64,000 nucleotides of DNA from a virus, in IMG/VR virus record IMGVR_UViG_3300023198_001068, one strand, 5' to 3'. The position numbers and the translations under genes are program-made. Positions 26,218 through 47,729 of this stretch are shown piece by piece. Position 1 is the first letter of the stretch; each line of letters begins with the position of its first letter. The notes below the pieces were generated by a model, which worked only from the letters and a program-made list of their open reading frames with translations, was not told the DNA's origin and did no database searches.

Positions 26218-26547
26218 ATGACGTTATCCTACACCTTTGGCCAGCTTCCCATCCACGAACAGAAGAACATCATCAAGGCGCTGTTCGAGGCGCTCCACAA
26301 GCTGCGGGGCTACCTCTATGAGGCCGACCTCAAGCGTTTCGTCTCCTGGGTGGACGACGAGTATCATGCCAACAAGAACGCAGCAGGGCGCCCCTCAGCG
26401 CCCGCACGGCCCACGCGGCCCCCGGAGCCCCGGACGGCCTGGGACCGGATCCGGGGCGTCATGTCCCACCGGGACCAGGACATGGTGATTCGGGAGCCTC
26501 TGAGGGGAGGCGACGAGTACCACCGGTCTCAGCTTCTAAGCCGCTGA
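26218..26547 (+). CDS. Hypothetical protein with TAW motif
   Basis: EPRTAWDRIRG; tandem GTGTA motifs upstream. Confidence 0.6.
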   Translation: MTLSYTFGQLPIHEQKNIIKALFEALHKLRGYLYEADLKRFVSWVDDEYHANKNAAGRPSAPARPTRPPEPRTAWDRIRGVMSHRDQDMVIREPLRGGDEYHRSQLLSR

Positions 26548-28497
26548 GCGGGCGTTGTCCGCGATCTCAGCGGCCTGTTTGGCTAAGCGCCTCTCGTAGC
26601 GCTGTCTCAGGTTCCAGGCGGCGTTCGCATCCCGATCCCAGGTCTCGCCACACCTGCTACAGGTGTGGCTGTCGGCCGCAGGGTCGTCCCACTTCTTGTC
26701 GATGTGGCCGCAGAGGTGGCAGCGCTTGGTCGAGTAGGCGGCCCCCACACGAACCACTCGTTCGGCGCCCTTGTCCTTCAGGAAGCCGATGAACTGGCCC
26801 AGTGCCGCGATCTTGCGGTTGTAGCCGGCGATGGTCTGCCGTTCTTCTTCGGCCTCGGGCCTAGATCCCATCTCTTTCAGGTTGAGGTTCTCCAGGACGA
26901 CGGCTCCATACTCGGAGGTGATCTGATAGGCCCAGCGGCGGTAGATAGCATTGCGGCCCCGGATGGCTCGTTGCTCGCTCCCACGCTCCCACTGGTAGAG
27001 ATGTCGGTTCTTGCGACGCCAGCACTCCAGCTTGAGGACCATCTGCTCGATAGGGTCTGTCCTCCCTTTGCTCGTCAGCCAGAGGGACGAGGGGGCGTGC
27101 CCTTTTTGCTTGGCGGCTTCCCAGGACTTGTAGACGACGTAGGCTCGGCCTCCCACCGTGGCCTTCCACGCCTTGAACTGAGCCTTGAACTGGGCGAGTT
27201 GGGCGGCGTCGTTGTCCCTAGGCTTCTTCGGGCGTGGTGGGGTTGGGAATAGCTCGCGGCTCCAGCGTCCGGCGAGCTTGGCGAGCCTGGCAGGAGACTT
27301 CCACTGGGCAATGTACTTGGCGTCCTCTCGTACCCAGGCTGGGGCCTCGGCCGACTCTGGGGACTTCAGCCATTCCCGGAACTCGTCGCGCATGGCGTTG
27401 AAGTGGAGTTGGCCAATGGCGTGCAACTCATCCTTCTTCTTGAACTTGTCGAGTAGCGCAGCCGGCAACTCCCAAGCCTTTCCTTTCCCGTCGCTGTCTA
27501 TGCTGTAGAGCACTCGCATGTTGGGGTCCATGTAGCGCCAGCCCATGTCCATGCAGATGAAGTTGTCGCCCTCGACTATCGTTTGGAAGGTCTCGCTCTC
27601 CAAGGTGAGGTGCAACTCGTAGCGCAGCCGGCTACCCTCCCTGGTGACCTTGAGACGCGCCATTCGGATGAGGGCATCCTCCGGAAGGGGTCGGTGAAGG
27701 ATGATGGGGAGGGTCGCCCACACGGGAATGCGGCCACCCTTCGTGGGCTCCCCATCCTTACCCAAGGAATCTACCCGGATTCGGACGAGAGAGCGTCCAG
27801 CTTTCAGGGAAGTGCGTTGCGGCTTCCCGTTCTTCAGCGTCCAGGTGTCATCGGGAACCGGATCCATCTGAAGTTGGTTGCTCTTGCCGGAGAACAAGTC
27901 TTCGACAGACAGGCCGCCCTGGAGTTGGTGTCCTATGCTCCCCTTCCCTTCCCATCGCCGGGGCTTAGGGTCCATGCGGCCGGCTGCTGCTGCTGTGATG
28001 TCCTGTTCGGCAGGCATGTAGAGGCCGCACTTGATCCCGGAGTTGGGGCGAAGGGCTCTTGTCTTGGCGAGGTAGTCCTTGTTGTATTCCTTCGACTCCG
28101 CTTCCAGAGCGGCGTTGTCTTTCTCGACGCGCTTTTGCTCGGCCTTCATCTTCGCGTATGCTTGAGCAACCCGCTTCTTGATGGCCTTGATCTCGCACAC
28201 TAGCTCGGGGGAGTTCACGAGGTCGCTCTCGACCTTGTTCTGCTCTCGCTTCTGCCCTCGCGCCTCACCTAGTTGGTGTAAGAGGGCCTCGTATTCGTCC
28301 TCTAGCTGAGCGACGTTGCCGAAGGCTCGACGAGCTTCACGGTACAGACGACGCTTCTCGGCGAGCAGCTTCTTGCGGTCGTTCTTGAAGTCGTGGGTGA
28401 GACGCATCTGCTCGCGAACGAGGTCTGCGTTGTCGATAGGCGGTAGGCACCCGAAGGTCCAGATACGGCTTGGAGTGGTAGACACTTTTCGTTTCAT
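26536..28497 (-). CDS. cas12: Compact type V CRISPR effector, Cas12m/V-U1-like (~653 aa)
   Basis: N-term IWTFGCLPP...LVREQMRLTH; RuvC-I CMDMGWR, RuvC-II VVLENL, Zn finger CHLC/CSRC, RuvC-III DRDANAAWNL; adjacent CRISPR array; GAGG RBS before ATG 28497. Confidence 0.85.
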   Translation of the reverse strand: MKRKVSTTPSRIWTFGCLPPIDNADLVREQMRLTHDFKNDRKKLLAEKRRLYREARRAFGNVAQLEDEYEALLHQLGEARGQKREQNKVESDLVNSPELVCEIKAIKKRVAQAYAKMKAEQKRVEKDNAALEAESKEYNKDYLAKTRALRPNSGIKCGLYMPAEQDITAAAAGRMDPKPRRWEGKGSIGHQLQGGLSVEDLFSGKSNQLQMDPVPDDTWTLKNGKPQRTSLKAGRSLVRIRVDSLGKDGEPTKGGRIPVWATLPIILHRPLPEDALIRMARLKVTREGSRLRYELHLTLESETFQTIVEGDNFICMDMGWRYMDPNMRVLYSIDSDGKGKAWELPAALLDKFKKKDELHAIGQLHFNAMRDEFREWLKSPESAEAPAWVREDAKYIAQWKSPARLAKLAGRWSRELFPTPPRPKKPRDNDAAQLAQFKAQFKAWKATVGGRAYVVYKSWEAAKQKGHAPSSLWLTSKGRTDPIEQMVLKLECWRRKNRHLYQWERGSEQRAIRGRNAIYRRWAYQITSEYGAVVLENLNLKEMGSRPEAEEERQTIAGYNRKIAALGQFIGFLKDKGAERVVRVGAAYSTKRCHLCGHIDKKWDDPAADSHTCSRCGETWDRDANAAWNLRQRYERRLAKQAAEIADNARSAA

Positions 28498-28556
28498 CTG
28501 ATCCTCATCTGATTTAGGTAGGCGACTTCTGCTGGGCAGGAATGTCAATCCAGAAT

Positions 28557-30052
28557 GTCCCAGGTTCTAAGCCCCTGGAATGGCGTTGTGTGTGGCGTGC
28601 ATGTGATGGTCAGGACCAAGCTCACTTCGTCCAACCTGCATCAACTCAGTTCCGAGTTCTAACCCCTCGGACTAGGGCTTGCTCCGCGTCGTGTAACAAC
28701 AGCCACGCGGACGGTGGGGATGTAAGTTCCGGGTTCAAAACCTCCCGGACTAGGTGTTGTGCATCAGGCTTGGCTTCATCACGCCACGGCGCGCAGTTCC
28801 GAGTTCTAACCCCTCGGACAGGGTTTGTTCAGGCGGGACGTTGTTACACGGCGTAAGTTCCAGGTTCTAAGCCCCTGGACAGGCATGGTCCCCTCGTGAA
28901 CGCCTCGCTGTCGCCACACACGGGACAGTTCCAGATTCAAAGCCTCTGGACAGGCATTGCCCCTCCCTTCGTAGAGGCGAGTCTCGCGTCCGATGATCTG
29001 CTTGTCTCAGGTTCTAAGCCTCTGAGCAGGCGTTGTCCCACGGGATGGGGAACTGGCGTGTCCCCCTGCAAAGCTAGTCCCAGGTTCAAAGCCCCTGAGC
29101 AGGCATGGTCCCCTACGGCGTCCATTCCGACACCCTGCGGCGGTGGATGTCCCAGGTTCTAAGCCCCTGGACAGGCATGGTCCCGCCATCGACCCATCGA
29201 GTGAGGCTGACGAAACTGACGGTCTCAGGTTCAAAGCCCCTGAGCAGGCATTGCAAGTGGGGCGTACATGTGACGCTGTTCCGGTTTTTAACCCCTCGGA
29301 CTAGGGCTTGCTCCGCGTCGTGTAACAACAGCCAAGCGCCCGCAGTAGGTGAACAAGGAAGTTCTGTTCCAGATTCAAAGCCCCTGGACAGGCATGGCCC
29401 CGTGATGCCCTCAACAGAGCATACCCCAGAAGAACGTGTCTCAGATTCAAAGCCTCTGAGCAGGCATTGTCCCCCTCCCGTTGCCGTTCCCTGAAGCGGC
29501 GGTAGCGGTCGTCCCAGGTTCAAAGCCCCTGAGCAGGCGTTGTCCCGTCGAGATGATCATCGACCAATGGAACCCATCGAAGGTGTCCCAGGTTCAAAGC
29601 CCCTGAGCAGGCATGGCCCCACAGTCCGAGGACGGCAGAGATGACGGGACACGTTCCAGATCCAAAGCCTCTGGACAGGCTGTTGTTCCCGCGAGGTCGT
29701 AGAACGACGGAGGGATGACGATCCCGTTCCAGGTTCTAAGCCCCTGGACAGGCATTGTCCCGTGCCACGCAGGAGCCCGAGGTTACGAAGCCCCGGTTGT
29801 CCCAGCTTCAAAGCCTCTGAGCAGGCATTGTCCCCTTCTTCAGGTTCTTGTTCTCGGTCATTGTTCACCTTGTCTCAGGTTCAAAGCCTCTGAGCAGGCA
29901 TTGTCCCATGTCCCCCTCACTGTCGCGGAACAGGACGATGGCCGGGTCCCAGGTTCAAAGCCCCTGAGCAGGCGTTGTCCCGTGGCCCTCAGTGAGTTGC
30001 CTGCGACCCGCATGGTGTCCCAGGTTCAAAGCCCCTGAGCAGGCGTTGTCCC
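28557..30052 (-). CRISPR. CRISPR array, 21 repeats (~36 nt) and 20 spacers (20-56 nt, most 32-40)
   Basis: Repeat starts on + at 28557, 28649, 28726, 28796, 28857, 28928, 29004, 29077, 29149, 29222, 29278, 29366, 29438, 29511, 29585, 29653, 29726, 29799, 29872, 29946, 30017; minus-strand consensus GGGACAAYGCCTGCTCAGRGGCTTTGAACCTGRGAC; orientation inferred from degeneration toward cas12. Confidence 0.92.
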
Positions 30053-30273
30053 CCACCTAGCAGGAACCCTGTCGTGTCCACGCCTTGAAGGTCGTTTCGC
30101 GAGCGGTCCCCAAGGGCACGGCGAGAGGGGCCCAGAGAGCGCACCAACACGCCCTCTGGCTGTATTCGATTGCCAGAGATCGAGCACCAGCGAGCGGTTC
30201 CAGACGAGGTGGAAGTGCCTGGCCTCTCGCAAGTGGAACAAGGGGTAACACGTCAAGAACAAGCACGTCTACT

Positions 30274-30774
30274 TCATTCTGGTAGGATCGTCCCCAGCAG
30301 GATGTGGTCCCAAACGGTCGGCTTGTCCGGGGGAGCCGGCACGTCTACTGGATCGATCCCGCGTTCCTCGAACAGCTTGAGTAGCTCGAACCAGAACTTG
30401 GGCACGTCGAGGGTCCGCATCTTGACCGTCTGACCCCGGTACTGGGAGTTGACCCAGTGCCCTGGAAGCCGGACCTCGAACACGGAGTCCCGGGCCTCGT
30501 CCAAGGCAACGACGAACGGGTAGAGGACGGGAGGTGTCATGGTCCCCCCAGGTCTCTGGGCCGCCGCTCGCAACGTCCTCCAGTCCGCGTGCTCTAGTTC
30601 CAGGACGGCTCCTGGATCCTCCAGAGCGTTCTCGATGCGGAGGGACGCCCTGACCCCGGCCGCGTTGTTGTTGAAGGGCGGCTCCGTGTTGATCAGATGC
30701 AGAATGAAGTTGGCGAACGACTCCATGCCCCCGCCTGGAAGCTCCACCGGCTGGGGAATGGTGACGTACTTCAC
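30274..30774 (-). CDS. Hypothetical protein with TAW-like tag
   Basis: Ends DKPTVWDHILLGTILPE. Confidence 0.65.
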   Translation of the reverse strand: MKYVTIPQPVELPGGGMESFANFILHLINTEPPFNNNAAGVRASLRIENALEDPGAVLELEHADWRTLRAAAQRPGGTMTPPVLYPFVVALDEARDSVFEVRLPGHWVNSQYRGQTVKMRTLDVPKFWFELLKLFEERGIDPVDVPAPPDKPTVWDHILLGTILPE

Positions 30775-45389: not shown

Positions 45390-45788
45390 TTACTTTTCGA
45401 GCTTGACCACGAGGATGGCCTGCTGCTGCGAGAGGGCGCCGATGGCATCTTCCAGCTTCTCGGCTTTCACGCCGTAGTCCTTGACGTGTTCCTTGACGCT
45501 ATCGTTGCTCTGCGTCGCTTCCAGGCTTAGCCGGGTGGCTAGTTCGTTGTTCTCGATGACCTGATCTCTGAGAGCGTCGTTGACCTTCGTCAAGGTCTCG
45601 GTCATCTGCTCCCGGTCTTTCAGCCGGATGTCCTTGGCCTTGAGCAGCGCCTTCGTGACCTTGAACAGCACCACCACCACGGCGACCAAGGCCACGCACA
45701 GGAGCACCACGATGGCGCCCCACACGCCGCCTTCCTTCAGGAGTACCCCGAAGGCGTCAGAGGTGGCGTCGGCCGCGAACAACAACAT
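45390..45788 (-). CDS. Single-TM protein, possibly holin-like
   Basis: GVWGAIVVLLCVALVAVVVVLF followed by a basic stretch. Confidence 0.55.
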   Translation of the reverse strand: MLLFAADATSDAFGVLLKEGGVWGAIVVLLCVALVAVVVVLFKVTKALLKAKDIRLKDREQMTETLTKVNDALRDQVIENNELATRLSLEATQSNDSVKEHVKDYGVKAEKLEDAIGALSQQQAILVVKLEK

Positions 45789-45942
45789 GTCTCAGTTTCA
45801 AAGCTACTGAGCTAGCTTTGTCCCACTAGAGGTGGGACTTCAAAGGATTCGCCGTTACGGGCGCTGAACTGGGTATATCTCGCCCGAAACAGCCTTGTTC
45901 GGAATGGGCCAAACGGGAGGGTCGTGACTGGCTGGGTTCTTC

Positions 45943-46563: not shown

Positions 46564-46955
46564 CCCCCTACGAGCGCCGGGTCAGTTGGGAGCTTCGCTA
46601 CTCCCATGCCGGCATCTTGTCTCAGCGAGGGGGCACCGAGCGCTTCCGGCTCGACATGGCGCGGCTCCACGCCGACCCTCACGTCGTCAGCCTCAACGTC
46701 ACGGAAGACCCCGCAGTCCGTGGCTATGACGTGCTGGTCCAGTTCGTACCTGGAGTGGGGGGACCTCAGAACCCGGCGCTGTGGGGTCTGAACGACGAGT
46801 TGAACCGGAACGCCCCTCTGGAGTGGGGCCACAAGACGCCGCCCCCGGTCTACGAGGGCGAGGTTGACCACGACTGGAAGCCGCCCGAGCCGCCCAAGAC
46901 TGTCTGGGACCGGATTATGCAGGATGACGAGTCAGACCTGGACGATCCTGGCTAG
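46557..46955 (+). CDS. Hypothetical protein with TAW-like tag
   Basis: PKTVWDRIMQDDESDLDD. Confidence 0.6.
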   Translation: MPPPYERRVSWELRYSHAGILSQRGGTERFRLDMARLHADPHVVSLNVTEDPAVRGYDVLVQFVPGVGGPQNPALWGLNDELNRNAPLEWGHKTPPPVYEGEVDHDWKPPEPPKTVWDRIMQDDESDLDDPG

Positions 46956-47729
46956 CTCAAAGTGCATCCCGTCCTTGCGCTTGAAGTGGCCTCCCCAGTA
47001 GAAGCCCAGCTTGTTGGCGATGGAGACGAGTTCCCGGACGCTGCCCTTATTGCCGACCAGGGCCGGCGTCTTGCGTAGGCCGTTCCAGGGCACGTTGATG
47101 TCGAACGCCGTGGCCCAGGTGTGGTTGCTGAGGTAGGTCCGGGAGCCCCGCACGAACCGGGGGCACCAGGAGCCGGCCCACGACAGCACCAGGTCCATCT
47201 GACCGGCTTCCTCCCAGGCGTTGAACAGGGCCAGGAGTTGAGCCGTCCCGGCCTTGTGCCAGAAGATGCGCCCACTCTTTGGGGCTCCCCGGACGCCCTT
47301 GAGTTGGGGGACCACGACGCGGGTCAGGTTGTTCTTCTGCCAGGATCCGAGGATGACGATGCCCTCGGGGTTGCCCTTGGTGGGCTTGGCCTTGAACCGG
47401 ATCTTGCCGAACGTCTTGTCCCGGCCCGCTGCGCCTAGGGGGCGGAAGCTCGGAGCCGCCGGCCAGTTGGGGCCCTCGTTCTTGCGGACGTCCTTGATGA
47501 GGTCGTCTGCGGAGAAACCGTCGCTGAGGGCCGTTCCCCACGTCATGCCCCCGACGACGCCATCGTTATCGAGACCCATGGTGTTCTGGTAGACCTTCGT
47601 GGCCTCGTGCGTGGCGTCGTCGAACTTGCCGTGGGCCTCTCCCGTGTAAGCGGTGTCGCCCAGCAGGAACTCCTGCCACTCGCGGACCAGCGGACCTCGG
47701 GAACCTTTGCGGAGAGTCTTGAGTTGCAT
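46932..47729 (-). CDS. Endolysin: PG-binding domain plus M15 metallopeptidase
   Basis: LRKGSRGPLVREWQ...GLDNDGVVGGMTW (PG_binding_1); SNHTWATAFDIN...WGGHF...DGMHFE (M15 Zn ligands). Confidence 0.85.
   Translation of the reverse strand: MQLKTLRKGSRGPLVREWQEFLLGDTAYTGEAHGKFDDATHEATKVYQNTMGLDNDGVVGGMTWGTALSDGFSADDLIKDVRKNEGPNWPAAPSFRPLGAAGRDKTFGKIRFKAKPTKGNPEGIVILGSWQKNNLTRVVVPQLKGVRGAPKSGRIFWHKAGTAQLLALFNAWEEAGQMDLVLSWAGSWCPRFVRGSRTYLSNHTWATAFDINVPWNGLRKTPALVGNKGSVRELVSIANKLGFYWGGHFKRKDGMHFELARIVQV

What the first reader, a model, noticed from the sequence alone, without database searches (positions are those of the whole stretch)
28557..30052. CRISPR repeats are heterogeneous along the whole array but show compensatory stem covariation
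Seen (minus strand): stems read CTCAGG/CCTGGG, TCCAGG/CCTGGA, CTCAGA/TCTGAG, TCCAGA/TCTGGA, TCCGAG/CTCGGA and TCCGGG/CCCGGA. Paired positions mostly change together, and variation is not confined to the trailer. Known: Cas1-Cas2 copies the leader-proximal repeat, giving uniform arrays. Inference: structure rather than sequence is selected. The array may be old and fixed (regulatory guides), or assembled by recombination or by a non-cognate host adaptation machinery.
Basis: partly seen in the sequence, partly recalled or inferred. Interest (0 to 1): 0.62.

Follow-up and report, generated by a model that had tools for sequence, protein, structure and literature searches.

The report
Cas12m array with non-identical, co-varying repeats
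A phage-like element carries a DNA-binding CRISPR effector (Cas12m) beside a 21-repeat array in which almost every repeat differs in sequence but keeps the same RNA fold, and the same pattern occurs in some related Cas12m arrays.

Summary
The minus strand 30052->28557 holds 21 repeats of about 36 nt, 19 of them distinct. Variation runs along the whole array. The 6-bp helix stays paired in 95-97% of cells, and 5 of 6 pairs show changes on both sides.

I add a second, 3-bp helix that also covaries. Together the two helices give the pseudoknot plan solved for the Cas12m2 crRNA. The bases that Cas12m2 reads directly (terminal C, the G.A pair) are invariant or nearly so here, and the reading His-Arg pair is conserved in the adjacent 653-aa Cas12m homologue.

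No cas1, cas2 or cas4 was found among 95 candidate ORFs of the phage-like window. Two solitary repeats lie outside the array, each with its own compensated helix variant.

This window is not unique. Strong within-array covariation also occurs in two IMG/VR Cas12m arrays (L014, L019), and the native array of the published MsCas12m system has eight repeats, no two alike.

Best reading: crRNA units have diverged without repeat renewal, under selection for the scaffold fold, and were shuffled by recombination or recurrent toggling. I found no paper describing this. No targets, reads or close relatives could be found.

The parts
28557..30052 (-). CRISPR array of 21 repeats (about 36 nt) and 20 spacers. 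R01 is at 30017-30052 and R21 at 28557-28592. Thirteen spacers are 35-38 nt. The irregular ones (20, 25, 31, 32, 40, 41, 51, 56 nt) cluster around the divergent class-C repeats R11 and R18-R20.
26536..28497 (-). cas12m-like effector gene, 653 aa from the ATG at 28497 (P0001). It has a RuvC D-E-D triad, a C-terminal zinc-ribbon TNB domain, and a WED His268-Arg269 pair.
   Evidence: PDB 23vw_A Cas12m E 9.7e-60 and Cas12m2 2.8e-17; PF07282; PADLOC Cas12u1 1.2e-85; His-Arg alignment to Cas12m2 H269/R270
30053..30273 (-). Putative leader. This is the 221-nt non-coding stretch between the stop of the upstream co-oriented ORF (30274-30774) and R01.
   Evidence: no sigma-70-like promoter was found by the consensus scan, so its role is inferred
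26526..26561 (-). Solitary repeat that overlaps the last codons and the stop codon of cas12m. Its helix CTCAGC/GCTGAG carries a C-G innermost pair seen nowhere in the array.
   Evidence: 51.5 bits, E 3.6e-14; sequence. In the relative L034 the array starts 8 nt after the stop codon.
45789..45824 (-). Solitary repeat 17 kb from the array, in the gap before a small membrane-protein ORF (45390-45788). Its helix is CTCAGT/ACTGAG and its second helix GCT/AGC, both uniquely compensated.
   Evidence: 48.3 bits, E 3.6e-13; sequence; ORF translation
28644..28709 (-). Repeat R20 plus 20 nt of the preceding spacer. It is duplicated at 29273-29338 (R11 plus spacer tail) at 91% identity, and the R11 copy has lost two helix pairs.
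   Evidence: (family D5)

Best explanation
This is a type V-M (Cas12m) CRISPR locus on a phage-like element, with no adaptation genes in the window.

How it works (inferred from the family):
- The array is read on the minus strand, in the same direction as cas12m.
- Each repeat folds into the Cas12m crRNA scaffold. That scaffold is a 3-bp helix (-28..-26 with -17..-15), a 6-bp helix (-23..-18 with -8..-3), a G.A closing pair and a terminal AC.
- Cas12m cuts the transcript into units and uses roughly the first 17-20 nt of each spacer to bind, not cut, matching DNA, which silences it.

Why the repeats differ (inferred from the pattern):
- Nothing has been renewing the repeats from a single template, so the units evolved as separate guide-RNA genes.
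- Substitutions survived only if the fold and the protein-read bases were kept. Changes mostly passed through G.U or single-mismatch intermediates.
- Variants were then mixed along the array by recombination, gene conversion or unit duplication, or by repeated toggling at about nine tolerated sites.

The same behaviour in other Cas12m arrays suggests a recurring tendency of this adaptation-less family rather than a peculiarity of this contig.
For: Effector identity.

Scaffold plan: it matches the solved Cas12m2 crRNA (PMC10442227), which has a 36-nt scaffold, a 6-bp helix, a G.A pair and a C(-1) read by His269/Arg270. Here AC is the tail in 23 of 23 repeats and G precedes the helix in 22 of 23. 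H268/R269 are invariant in 14 homologues.

Covariation:
- Six-bp helix: 95% paired, 5 of 6 pairs changed on both sides.
- Second helix: 100% paired, with G-C to C-G three times, G-C to A-U once, and C-G to U-A once.
- Intermediate states are present, for example TCCAGG/CCTGGG with U.G, TCCGGG/CCCGGA, and A.C at the innermost pair.

Adaptation genes: no Cas1, Cas2 or Cas4 among 95 ORFs in PADLOC or Pfam. V-M is reported to lack them (PMC10691335; PMC11013384).

No anti-repeat: all significant model hits are on one strand.

Mixing: four gametes at 20 of 36 column pairs, Rm at least 5; no positional gradient; a duplicated unit.

Generality: L014 has 8 distinct helices (p = 2e-4). L019 has 22 units, all distinct, with 5.55 of 6 pairs against 3.56 permuted. 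M. silvanus pMESIL02 has 8 repeats, all distinct.
Against: - No expression, processing or binding data exist for this locus. No sequencing run was listed, so the assembly could not be checked.
- No spacer target was found, so function as immunity or regulation is not shown.
- Five helix cells are unpaired and R11 looks decayed, so some units may be dead.
- The shuffle controls ignore relatedness among repeats. The number of independent compensatory events is smaller than the cell counts suggest.
- The regular 35-38-nt spacers imply that an integrase-type ruler once built the array. That would have made the repeats uniform at the time, so a long period or a diverse recombination pool must be assumed.
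- In M. silvanus, L012 and L004 the arm-permutation test is not significant on its own (p = 0.12-0.34).
Confidence: 0.68

Rival explanations
1. The array is a mosaic assembled from two or three once-uniform arrays of related phages: class A (CTCAG..), class B (TCCAG..) and class C (TCCGAG.., with a different 5' part and one extra base). Compensation arose between lineages, and recombination then interleaved the units. Little selection or mutation took place inside this array.
For: Class C repeats (R11, R18-R20) differ in the 5' segment and the linker, and they sit where spacer lengths become irregular. There is a duplicated unit. Four-gamete incompatibilities occur within the 36-nt repeat. Variants are interspersed with no gradient. 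One IMG/VR contig carries two cas12m loci (L012 and L029), so co-resident arrays do exist.
Against: There are 19 distinct 36-mers among 21 repeats, and 11 distinct types among the 14 core repeats. That is too many for a few uniform parents unless breakpoints fall inside repeats. Intermediate pair states (U.G, A.C, GG/CC) look like in-place stepwise change. No donor array with these repeats exists in the three collections searched.
Confidence: 0.2
2. Heterogeneity is itself selected. Non-identical repeats leave only short exact homology between neighbours. That would protect a fixed set of useful guides from deletion by recombination, in an element that cannot re-acquire spacers. It would be a natural counterpart of engineered non-repetitive guide arrays.
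For: The longest exact run shared by neighbouring repeats is 13 nt or less in 17 of 20 junctions. No adaptation genes were found. The two solitary repeats also carry unique helix variants. L019 has 22 different scaffolds.
Against: R01/R02 are identical, and R03/R04 and R07/R08 share 28 nt. Many Cas12m arrays are uniform and apparently stable. Neutral drift under a structural constraint gives the same picture without this extra selection. There is no direct test here.
Confidence: 0.07
3. Artefact: a metagenome assembler merged strain variants, or made errors, in a repetitive region, so the real arrays are uniform.
For: The contig appears to come from a metagenome, since no whole genome is held and there are no close relatives. 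Arrays are hard to assemble: three of the four contigs fetched for the nearest homologues end within about 130 nt of cas12m.
Against: Errors would not be compensatory, would not spare the protein-read bases, and would not create a second covarying helix. The spacers are unique apart from one duplicated unit. The finished plasmid of an isolate, M. silvanus DSM 9946, shows the same kind of heterogeneity.
Confidence: 0.05

Closest known systems
Type V-M CRISPR-Cas12m (formerly V-U1): MmCas12m/Cas12m2, GoCas12m, MsCas12m (PMC10442227, PMC11013384)
   Same: Effector homology. A 36-nt repeat ending in AC. The pseudoknot scaffold, the G.A pair and the His-Arg reader. No tracrRNA-like anti-repeat and no cas1/2/4. 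The repeat is about 89% identical to repeats of the M. silvanus array.
   Different: The array lies upstream of cas12m, with only a single repeat at the usual downstream place. The nearest homologue is 33% identical. The host element is phage-like. Nearly every repeat is different, a property the papers I could read do not mention, because they show one repeat per system.
Phage-encoded Cas12m of myxophage MV-1 (bioRxiv 10.64898/2026.09.14.751636)
   Same: Cas12m next to an array on a phage, without adaptation genes, with a D-E-D RuvC triad and no spacer targets found.
   Different: MV-1 is described with one consensus repeat and eight spacers. Here there are 21 repeats with 19 sequences, plus two solitary repeats. 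That preprint calls its case the first phage Cas12m, yet one search found 31 IMG/VR loci with homologues.
Compensatory changes in CRISPR repeat stems between arrays and species (Kunin et al. 2007, cited in PMC12839519)
   Same: Structure is conserved while sequence changes, and stems covary.
   Different: That covariation is between arrays of different genomes. Here it is among the repeats of one array. The 2026 survey of repeat mutations (PMC12839519) does not mention compensatory changes, stems or V-M.
Standalone repeat units and mini-arrays (PMC10120712)
   Same: Single repeat copies lie outside the array, one of them beside the effector gene.
   Different: No partial match of the adjoining guide to a promoter or to any other site in the window. 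No clear degenerate distal repeat. One copy overlaps a coding stop codon.
Omega-RNA of TnpB, and arrays thought to arise by duplication of omega-RNA segments (PMC10691335)
   Same: A guide scaffold abuts or overlaps the 3' end of the nuclease gene (solitary repeat at 26526). The units behave as separate guide genes.
   Different: The scaffold is a short crRNA-type repeat, not a long omega-RNA. Most spacers have the regular length typical of integrase-built arrays.

Membership tests
Type V-M CRISPR-Cas (Cas12m) | Effector homologous to Cas12m over its whole length, with RuvC and a zinc-ribbon TNB domain | tested here: met
   23vw_A E 9.7e-60 over residues 13-631; Cas12m2 2.8e-17; PADLOC Cas12u1 1.2e-85; PF07282 5e-13
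Type V-M CRISPR-Cas (Cas12m) | WED His-Arg pair that reads C(-1) and stacks on the G.A pair | tested here: met
   P0001 H268/R269 align to Cas12m2 H269/R270 and are invariant in 14 homologues
Type V-M CRISPR-Cas (Cas12m) | A 36-nt repeat forming a pseudoknot-type scaffold with a 6-bp helix, a G.A pair and a terminal AC | tested here: met
   compared with PMC10442227 section 7. The loop is 9 nt, one longer than in Cas12m2.
Type V-M CRISPR-Cas (Cas12m) | No adaptation genes and no tracrRNA | tested here: met
   No Cas1/2/4 among 95 ORFs. All significant repeat-model hits are on one strand. About 17 kb of the contig was not visible.
Type V-M CRISPR-Cas (Cas12m) | Array downstream of the effector gene | tested here: not met
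   The 21-repeat array is upstream and only one repeat lies at the 3' end. In the IMG/VR relatives with arrays, and in L034, the array is downstream.
Type V-M CRISPR-Cas (Cas12m) | PAM-dependent DNA binding without cleavage, and self-processing of pre-crRNA | not testable with these tools
   Needs biochemistry. The RuvC triad is D-E-D, and D-E-D Cas12m variants were reported not to cleave (PMC11013384).
Canonical Cas1-Cas2-built CRISPR array | Repeats identical, except for decay at the trailer end | tested here: not met
   19 distinct 36-mers of 21. No positional gradient among R01-R17.
Canonical Cas1-Cas2-built CRISPR array | Spacers unique and of nearly constant length | tested here: inconclusive
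   13 of 20 spacers are 35-38 nt; the others are 20-56 nt. One unit is duplicated.
Regulatory standalone repeat or mini-array | A repeat outside the array whose guide partly matches a promoter of a cas or cargo gene | tested here: not met
   No match of 13 nt or more in the guide seed of either solitary repeat anywhere in the window

The most novel reading that the evidence does not exclude
Some Cas12m arrays may not be ordinary Cas1-Cas2 products. They may be clusters of independently evolving guide-RNA genes, built or maintained by unit duplication and recombination. On this reading scaffold diversity is tolerated or even favoured, and phages use fixed guides, including solitary repeats beside their own genes, to silence host, rival or own genes. 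L019 would be the extreme form: 22 different 28-nt scaffolds, each followed by roughly 10-28 nt.
Probability: 0.2. Interest if true: 0.75.

Novelty: new variant of a known kind. Interest (0 to 1): 0.52.

Why it matters
- It gives a natural record of which Cas12m scaffold changes appear to be tolerated: nine toggling sites, two covarying helices and fixed contact bases. That is directly useful for designing non-repetitive multiplex arrays for Cas12m tools.
- It suggests that, in a family without adaptation genes, repeats can drift as separate guide genes. This bears on how arrays arise from and after TnpB-type ancestors, and on how long such arrays persist.
- Array finders that expect near-identical repeats will miss or truncate such arrays.
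- Phage Cas12m loci are much more common in public viral contigs than the one case described so far.

Tried and rejected
- Sequencing runs: none was listed for 26400-30300, so neither the read pile-up test nor expression could be examined.
- Whole genome: none is held.
- Near matches of 20-40 kb of the window in the phage and plasmid collections: none.
- Repeat pattern in viral, metagenome and genome contigs: none.
- Exact product look-up of P0001: not on record.
- Relatives in genome contigs: the first alignment was not usable. The second gave 80 pattern hits but no relative. The host stays unknown.
- Spacer targets: none in phages. In plasmids only the repeat similarity to M. silvanus and two chance-level hits. 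None within the window. Leader-end spacer seeds sp01 and sp02 were absent from viral contigs.
- Rfam and tRNA scans: nothing.
- Promoter scan around the array: nothing.
- Degenerate distal repeats after the solitary repeats: not above background at 45789, borderline at 26526.
- A second cas12m copy or remnant in the window: none.
- Wu et al. 2022 (Mol Cell) is not in the library, so I cannot say whether it comments on repeat heterogeneity.
It was redone from coordinates.

Full report
**What is there.** Read on the minus strand, window 30052->28557 holds 21 direct repeats of about 36 nt with 20 spacers. Fifty-nine bases after the last repeat, a 653-aa ORF starts (28497->26536, P0001).
- P0001 matches solved Cas12m structures over its full length: 23vw_A at E 9.7e-60, GoCas12m 8pm4 at 6e-20, and Cas12m2 8hhl at 2.8e-17.
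- It also matches the PADLOC model Cas12u1 (the old name V-U1) at 1.2e-85 and the TNB zinc-ribbon domain PF07282.
- Its RuvC motifs read D-E-D.

Among 95 candidate ORFs chosen by third-position GC there is no Cas1, Cas2 or Cas4 in PADLOC or Pfam. What does hit is phage-like: a tyrosine integrase, Lar, a dNMP kinase, an M15 peptidase, PG-binding domains, a transglycosylase and a PvuII-type endonuclease. The window carries no tRNA and no Rfam family.

- On 22 ungapped repeats, the 6-bp helix is paired in 95.1% of cells. Five of six pairs change on both sides, no shuffle out of 500 reaches the observed covariation, and sliding the partner destroys pairing.
- RNAalifold finds the same helix unprompted.
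- Permuting the 3' arms among the 14 distinct helices gives 4.81 pairs on average against 5.71 observed, with 0 of 20000 permutations as high.
- Variation is not a trailer effect. Among R01-R17 the distance between scaffolds is unrelated to their distance in the array (r = -0.04).

Three bases upstream of the helix (GCC at -28..-26) pair with the first three loop bases (GGC at -17..-15).
- This pairing is kept in all 23 copies. It changes to CCC/GGG in three repeats, to ACC/GGU in one, and to GCU/AGC in one solitary repeat.
- Together with the G before the helix and the A after it, this matches the plan described for the Cas12m2 crRNA: a 36-nt scaffold, a 6-bp helix stacked on a stem, a non-canonical G.A pair, and a C(-1) read by His269/Arg270, with the first seven bases disordered (PMC10442227).
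- In this window AC ends 23 of 23 repeats and G precedes the helix in 22 of 23.
- P0001 His268/Arg269 align to those two residues and are invariant in 14 homologues.

So the bases the protein reads are fixed or nearly so, and the helices it holds by the backbone are free to covary. The variants form a connected series through wobble or single-mismatch states:
- CU..GG, then UC..GG with U.G, then UC..GA.
- AG/CU, then GG/CC (R19), then GA/UC.
- G-C, then A.C or G.U, then A-U at the innermost pair.

**Pattern of mixing.**
- Among the 14 core repeats, nine sites toggle between two states.
- Twenty of the 36 site pairs show all four combinations, which needs at least five recombination or recurrent-mutation intervals within 36 nt.
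- One repeat plus 20 nt of its spacer is duplicated at 91% identity (28644-28709 and 29273-29338), and the copy has lost two helix pairs.
- Four repeats (R11, R18-R20) form a distinct class with another 5' segment (three of them also have an extra linker base). They sit where spacer lengths become irregular.
- Elsewhere spacers are 35-38 nt, as if a ruler-type integrase once built the array.

**Two solitary repeats.** A covariance model built from the repeats finds only two further significant copies in 64 kb. Both are on the same strand.
- The copy at 26526-26561 overlaps the last codons and the stop of cas12m. Its innermost pair is C-G.
- The copy at 45789-45824 lies 17 kb away, in front of a small membrane-protein ORF near an M15 peptidase gene. 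Its innermost pair is U-A and its second helix is GCU/AGC.
- Neither adjoining guide matches another site in the window. A decayed second repeat is not supported at 45789 and is borderline at 26526.
- In the relative L034, a uniform array begins 8 nt after the stop codon. The copy at 26526 therefore sits where a downstream array would normally start.
- In the IMG/VR relatives that have arrays, the array is downstream of the gene, as reported for Cas12 in general (PMC10691335). The upstream position here is unusual.

**Is this window special?** P0001 has no close relative. The best hit is 33% identical, and the repeat pattern is absent from the three contig collections. Homologues are nonetheless common on viral contigs: 31 IMG/VR loci were found.
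- Many of their arrays are uniform (L009, L015, L017, L025, L030).
- Others are not. L014 has 8 distinct helices in 21 units (p = 2e-4).
- L019 has 22 units with 22 different helices that still pair at 5.55 of 6, against 3.56 after permutation. Its units are spaced mostly 37-56 nt apart, which means a scaffold of about 28 nt followed by a short guide.
- L012 and the far end of L004 show milder cases.
- The native array of the experimentally studied MsCas12m, on plasmid pMESIL02 of M. silvanus DSM 9946, has eight repeats, none identical.

The papers I could read show one repeat per system and do not mention this. A 2026 survey of repeat mutations mentions neither compensation nor V-M. Wu et al. 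2022 is not in the library.

**Most likely mechanism.**
- Shown: the effector family, the absence of adaptation genes in the window, the fold, its covariation, the near-invariance of the contact bases, the mosaic pattern, and the recurrence in other arrays.
- Inferred from the family: the array is transcribed with or towards cas12m. Cas12m cuts it into crRNAs of about 50 nt. About 17 nt of each spacer guide DNA binding that silences rather than cuts.
- Inferred from the pattern: with no ongoing copying of a leader-proximal repeat, units diverged under selection for the fold. They were then shuffled by recombination or by repeated toggling of a few tolerated sites.

The mean scaffold divergence is about 12% (3.4 of 28 positions). 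This implies either an old array or a diverse pool of recombination partners. If the array is old, spacers that still work must be kept by selection, which would fit fixed guides. No target was found to test that.

**Rivals.**
- A mosaic of a few once-uniform arrays explains class C and the duplication. It does not easily explain 11 types among 14 core repeats.
- Selection for non-identical repeats as protection against deletion fits the short shared runs between neighbours (13 nt or less at 17 of 20 junctions). It is not needed to explain the data.
- An assembly artefact is unlikely. Errors would not be compensatory, and a finished isolate plasmid shows the same kind of heterogeneity. Reads could not be examined.

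**Verdict.** This is a real and statistically clear feature in a known kind of system. The interpretation that structure is selected is right. The origin is only partly resolved. The property appears undescribed, but it is not unique to this contig.

Noticed in passing
window 45789-45824 (-) and ORF 45390-45788 (-): A solitary Cas12m repeat ends exactly at the first ATG of a 132-aa ORF with one membrane helix and a coiled coil. The ORF lies downstream of an M15 peptidase gene (46932-47729). A GTG preceded by AAGGAAGG about 63 nt further in could be the real start, which would make the repeat and its guide a 5' leader.
   Followed up: partly
window 26526-26561 (-): A solitary repeat encodes the last residues and the stop of cas12m. 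It also overlaps the 3' end of a convergent ORF (26218-26547, +). A partial copy (CTCAGAGGCT...GAATC) follows about 15 nt later, with a borderline score.
   Followed up: partly
L019:6900-8350: An IMG/VR Cas12m array in which all 22 units have different helices and several have different second helices (GCC/GGC, UCC/GGA, GUCC/GGAC). Units are spaced mostly 37-56 nt apart, and only about 28 nt per unit is conserved.
   Followed up: partly
L014:7390-7756: Seven units share one helix (CTCCGC/GCGGAG) at an exact 61-nt period. They sit inside an array that also holds three or more other helix classes at 72-nt and 40-64-nt spacings.
   Followed up: no
L032:3274-3814 (M. silvanus pMESIL02): The native array of the published MsCas12m system has 8 repeats, none identical. 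One of them has a changed helix (CCCG.../...CGGG).
   Followed up: partly
L012 and L029: One 152.9-kb IMG/VR contig (UViG_3300032770_000005) carries two distinct cas12m homologues about 48 kb apart.
   Followed up: no
window 28832-28856, 28686-28705 and 29315-29334: Spacer 17 contains CGTGTAACAAC. This is the reverse complement of a motif in the 20-nt tail shared by spacers 10 and 19. That tail can also form a 6-bp GC-rich hairpin with the first bases of the following repeat.
   Followed up: no
L033-L036: The nearest homologues of P0001 (33-37% identical) also lie among phage-type genes (GP88, SLT, HNH, dCMP deaminase, SNF2 helicase). Three of the four fetched contigs end within about 130 nt of cas12m.
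   Followed up: partly
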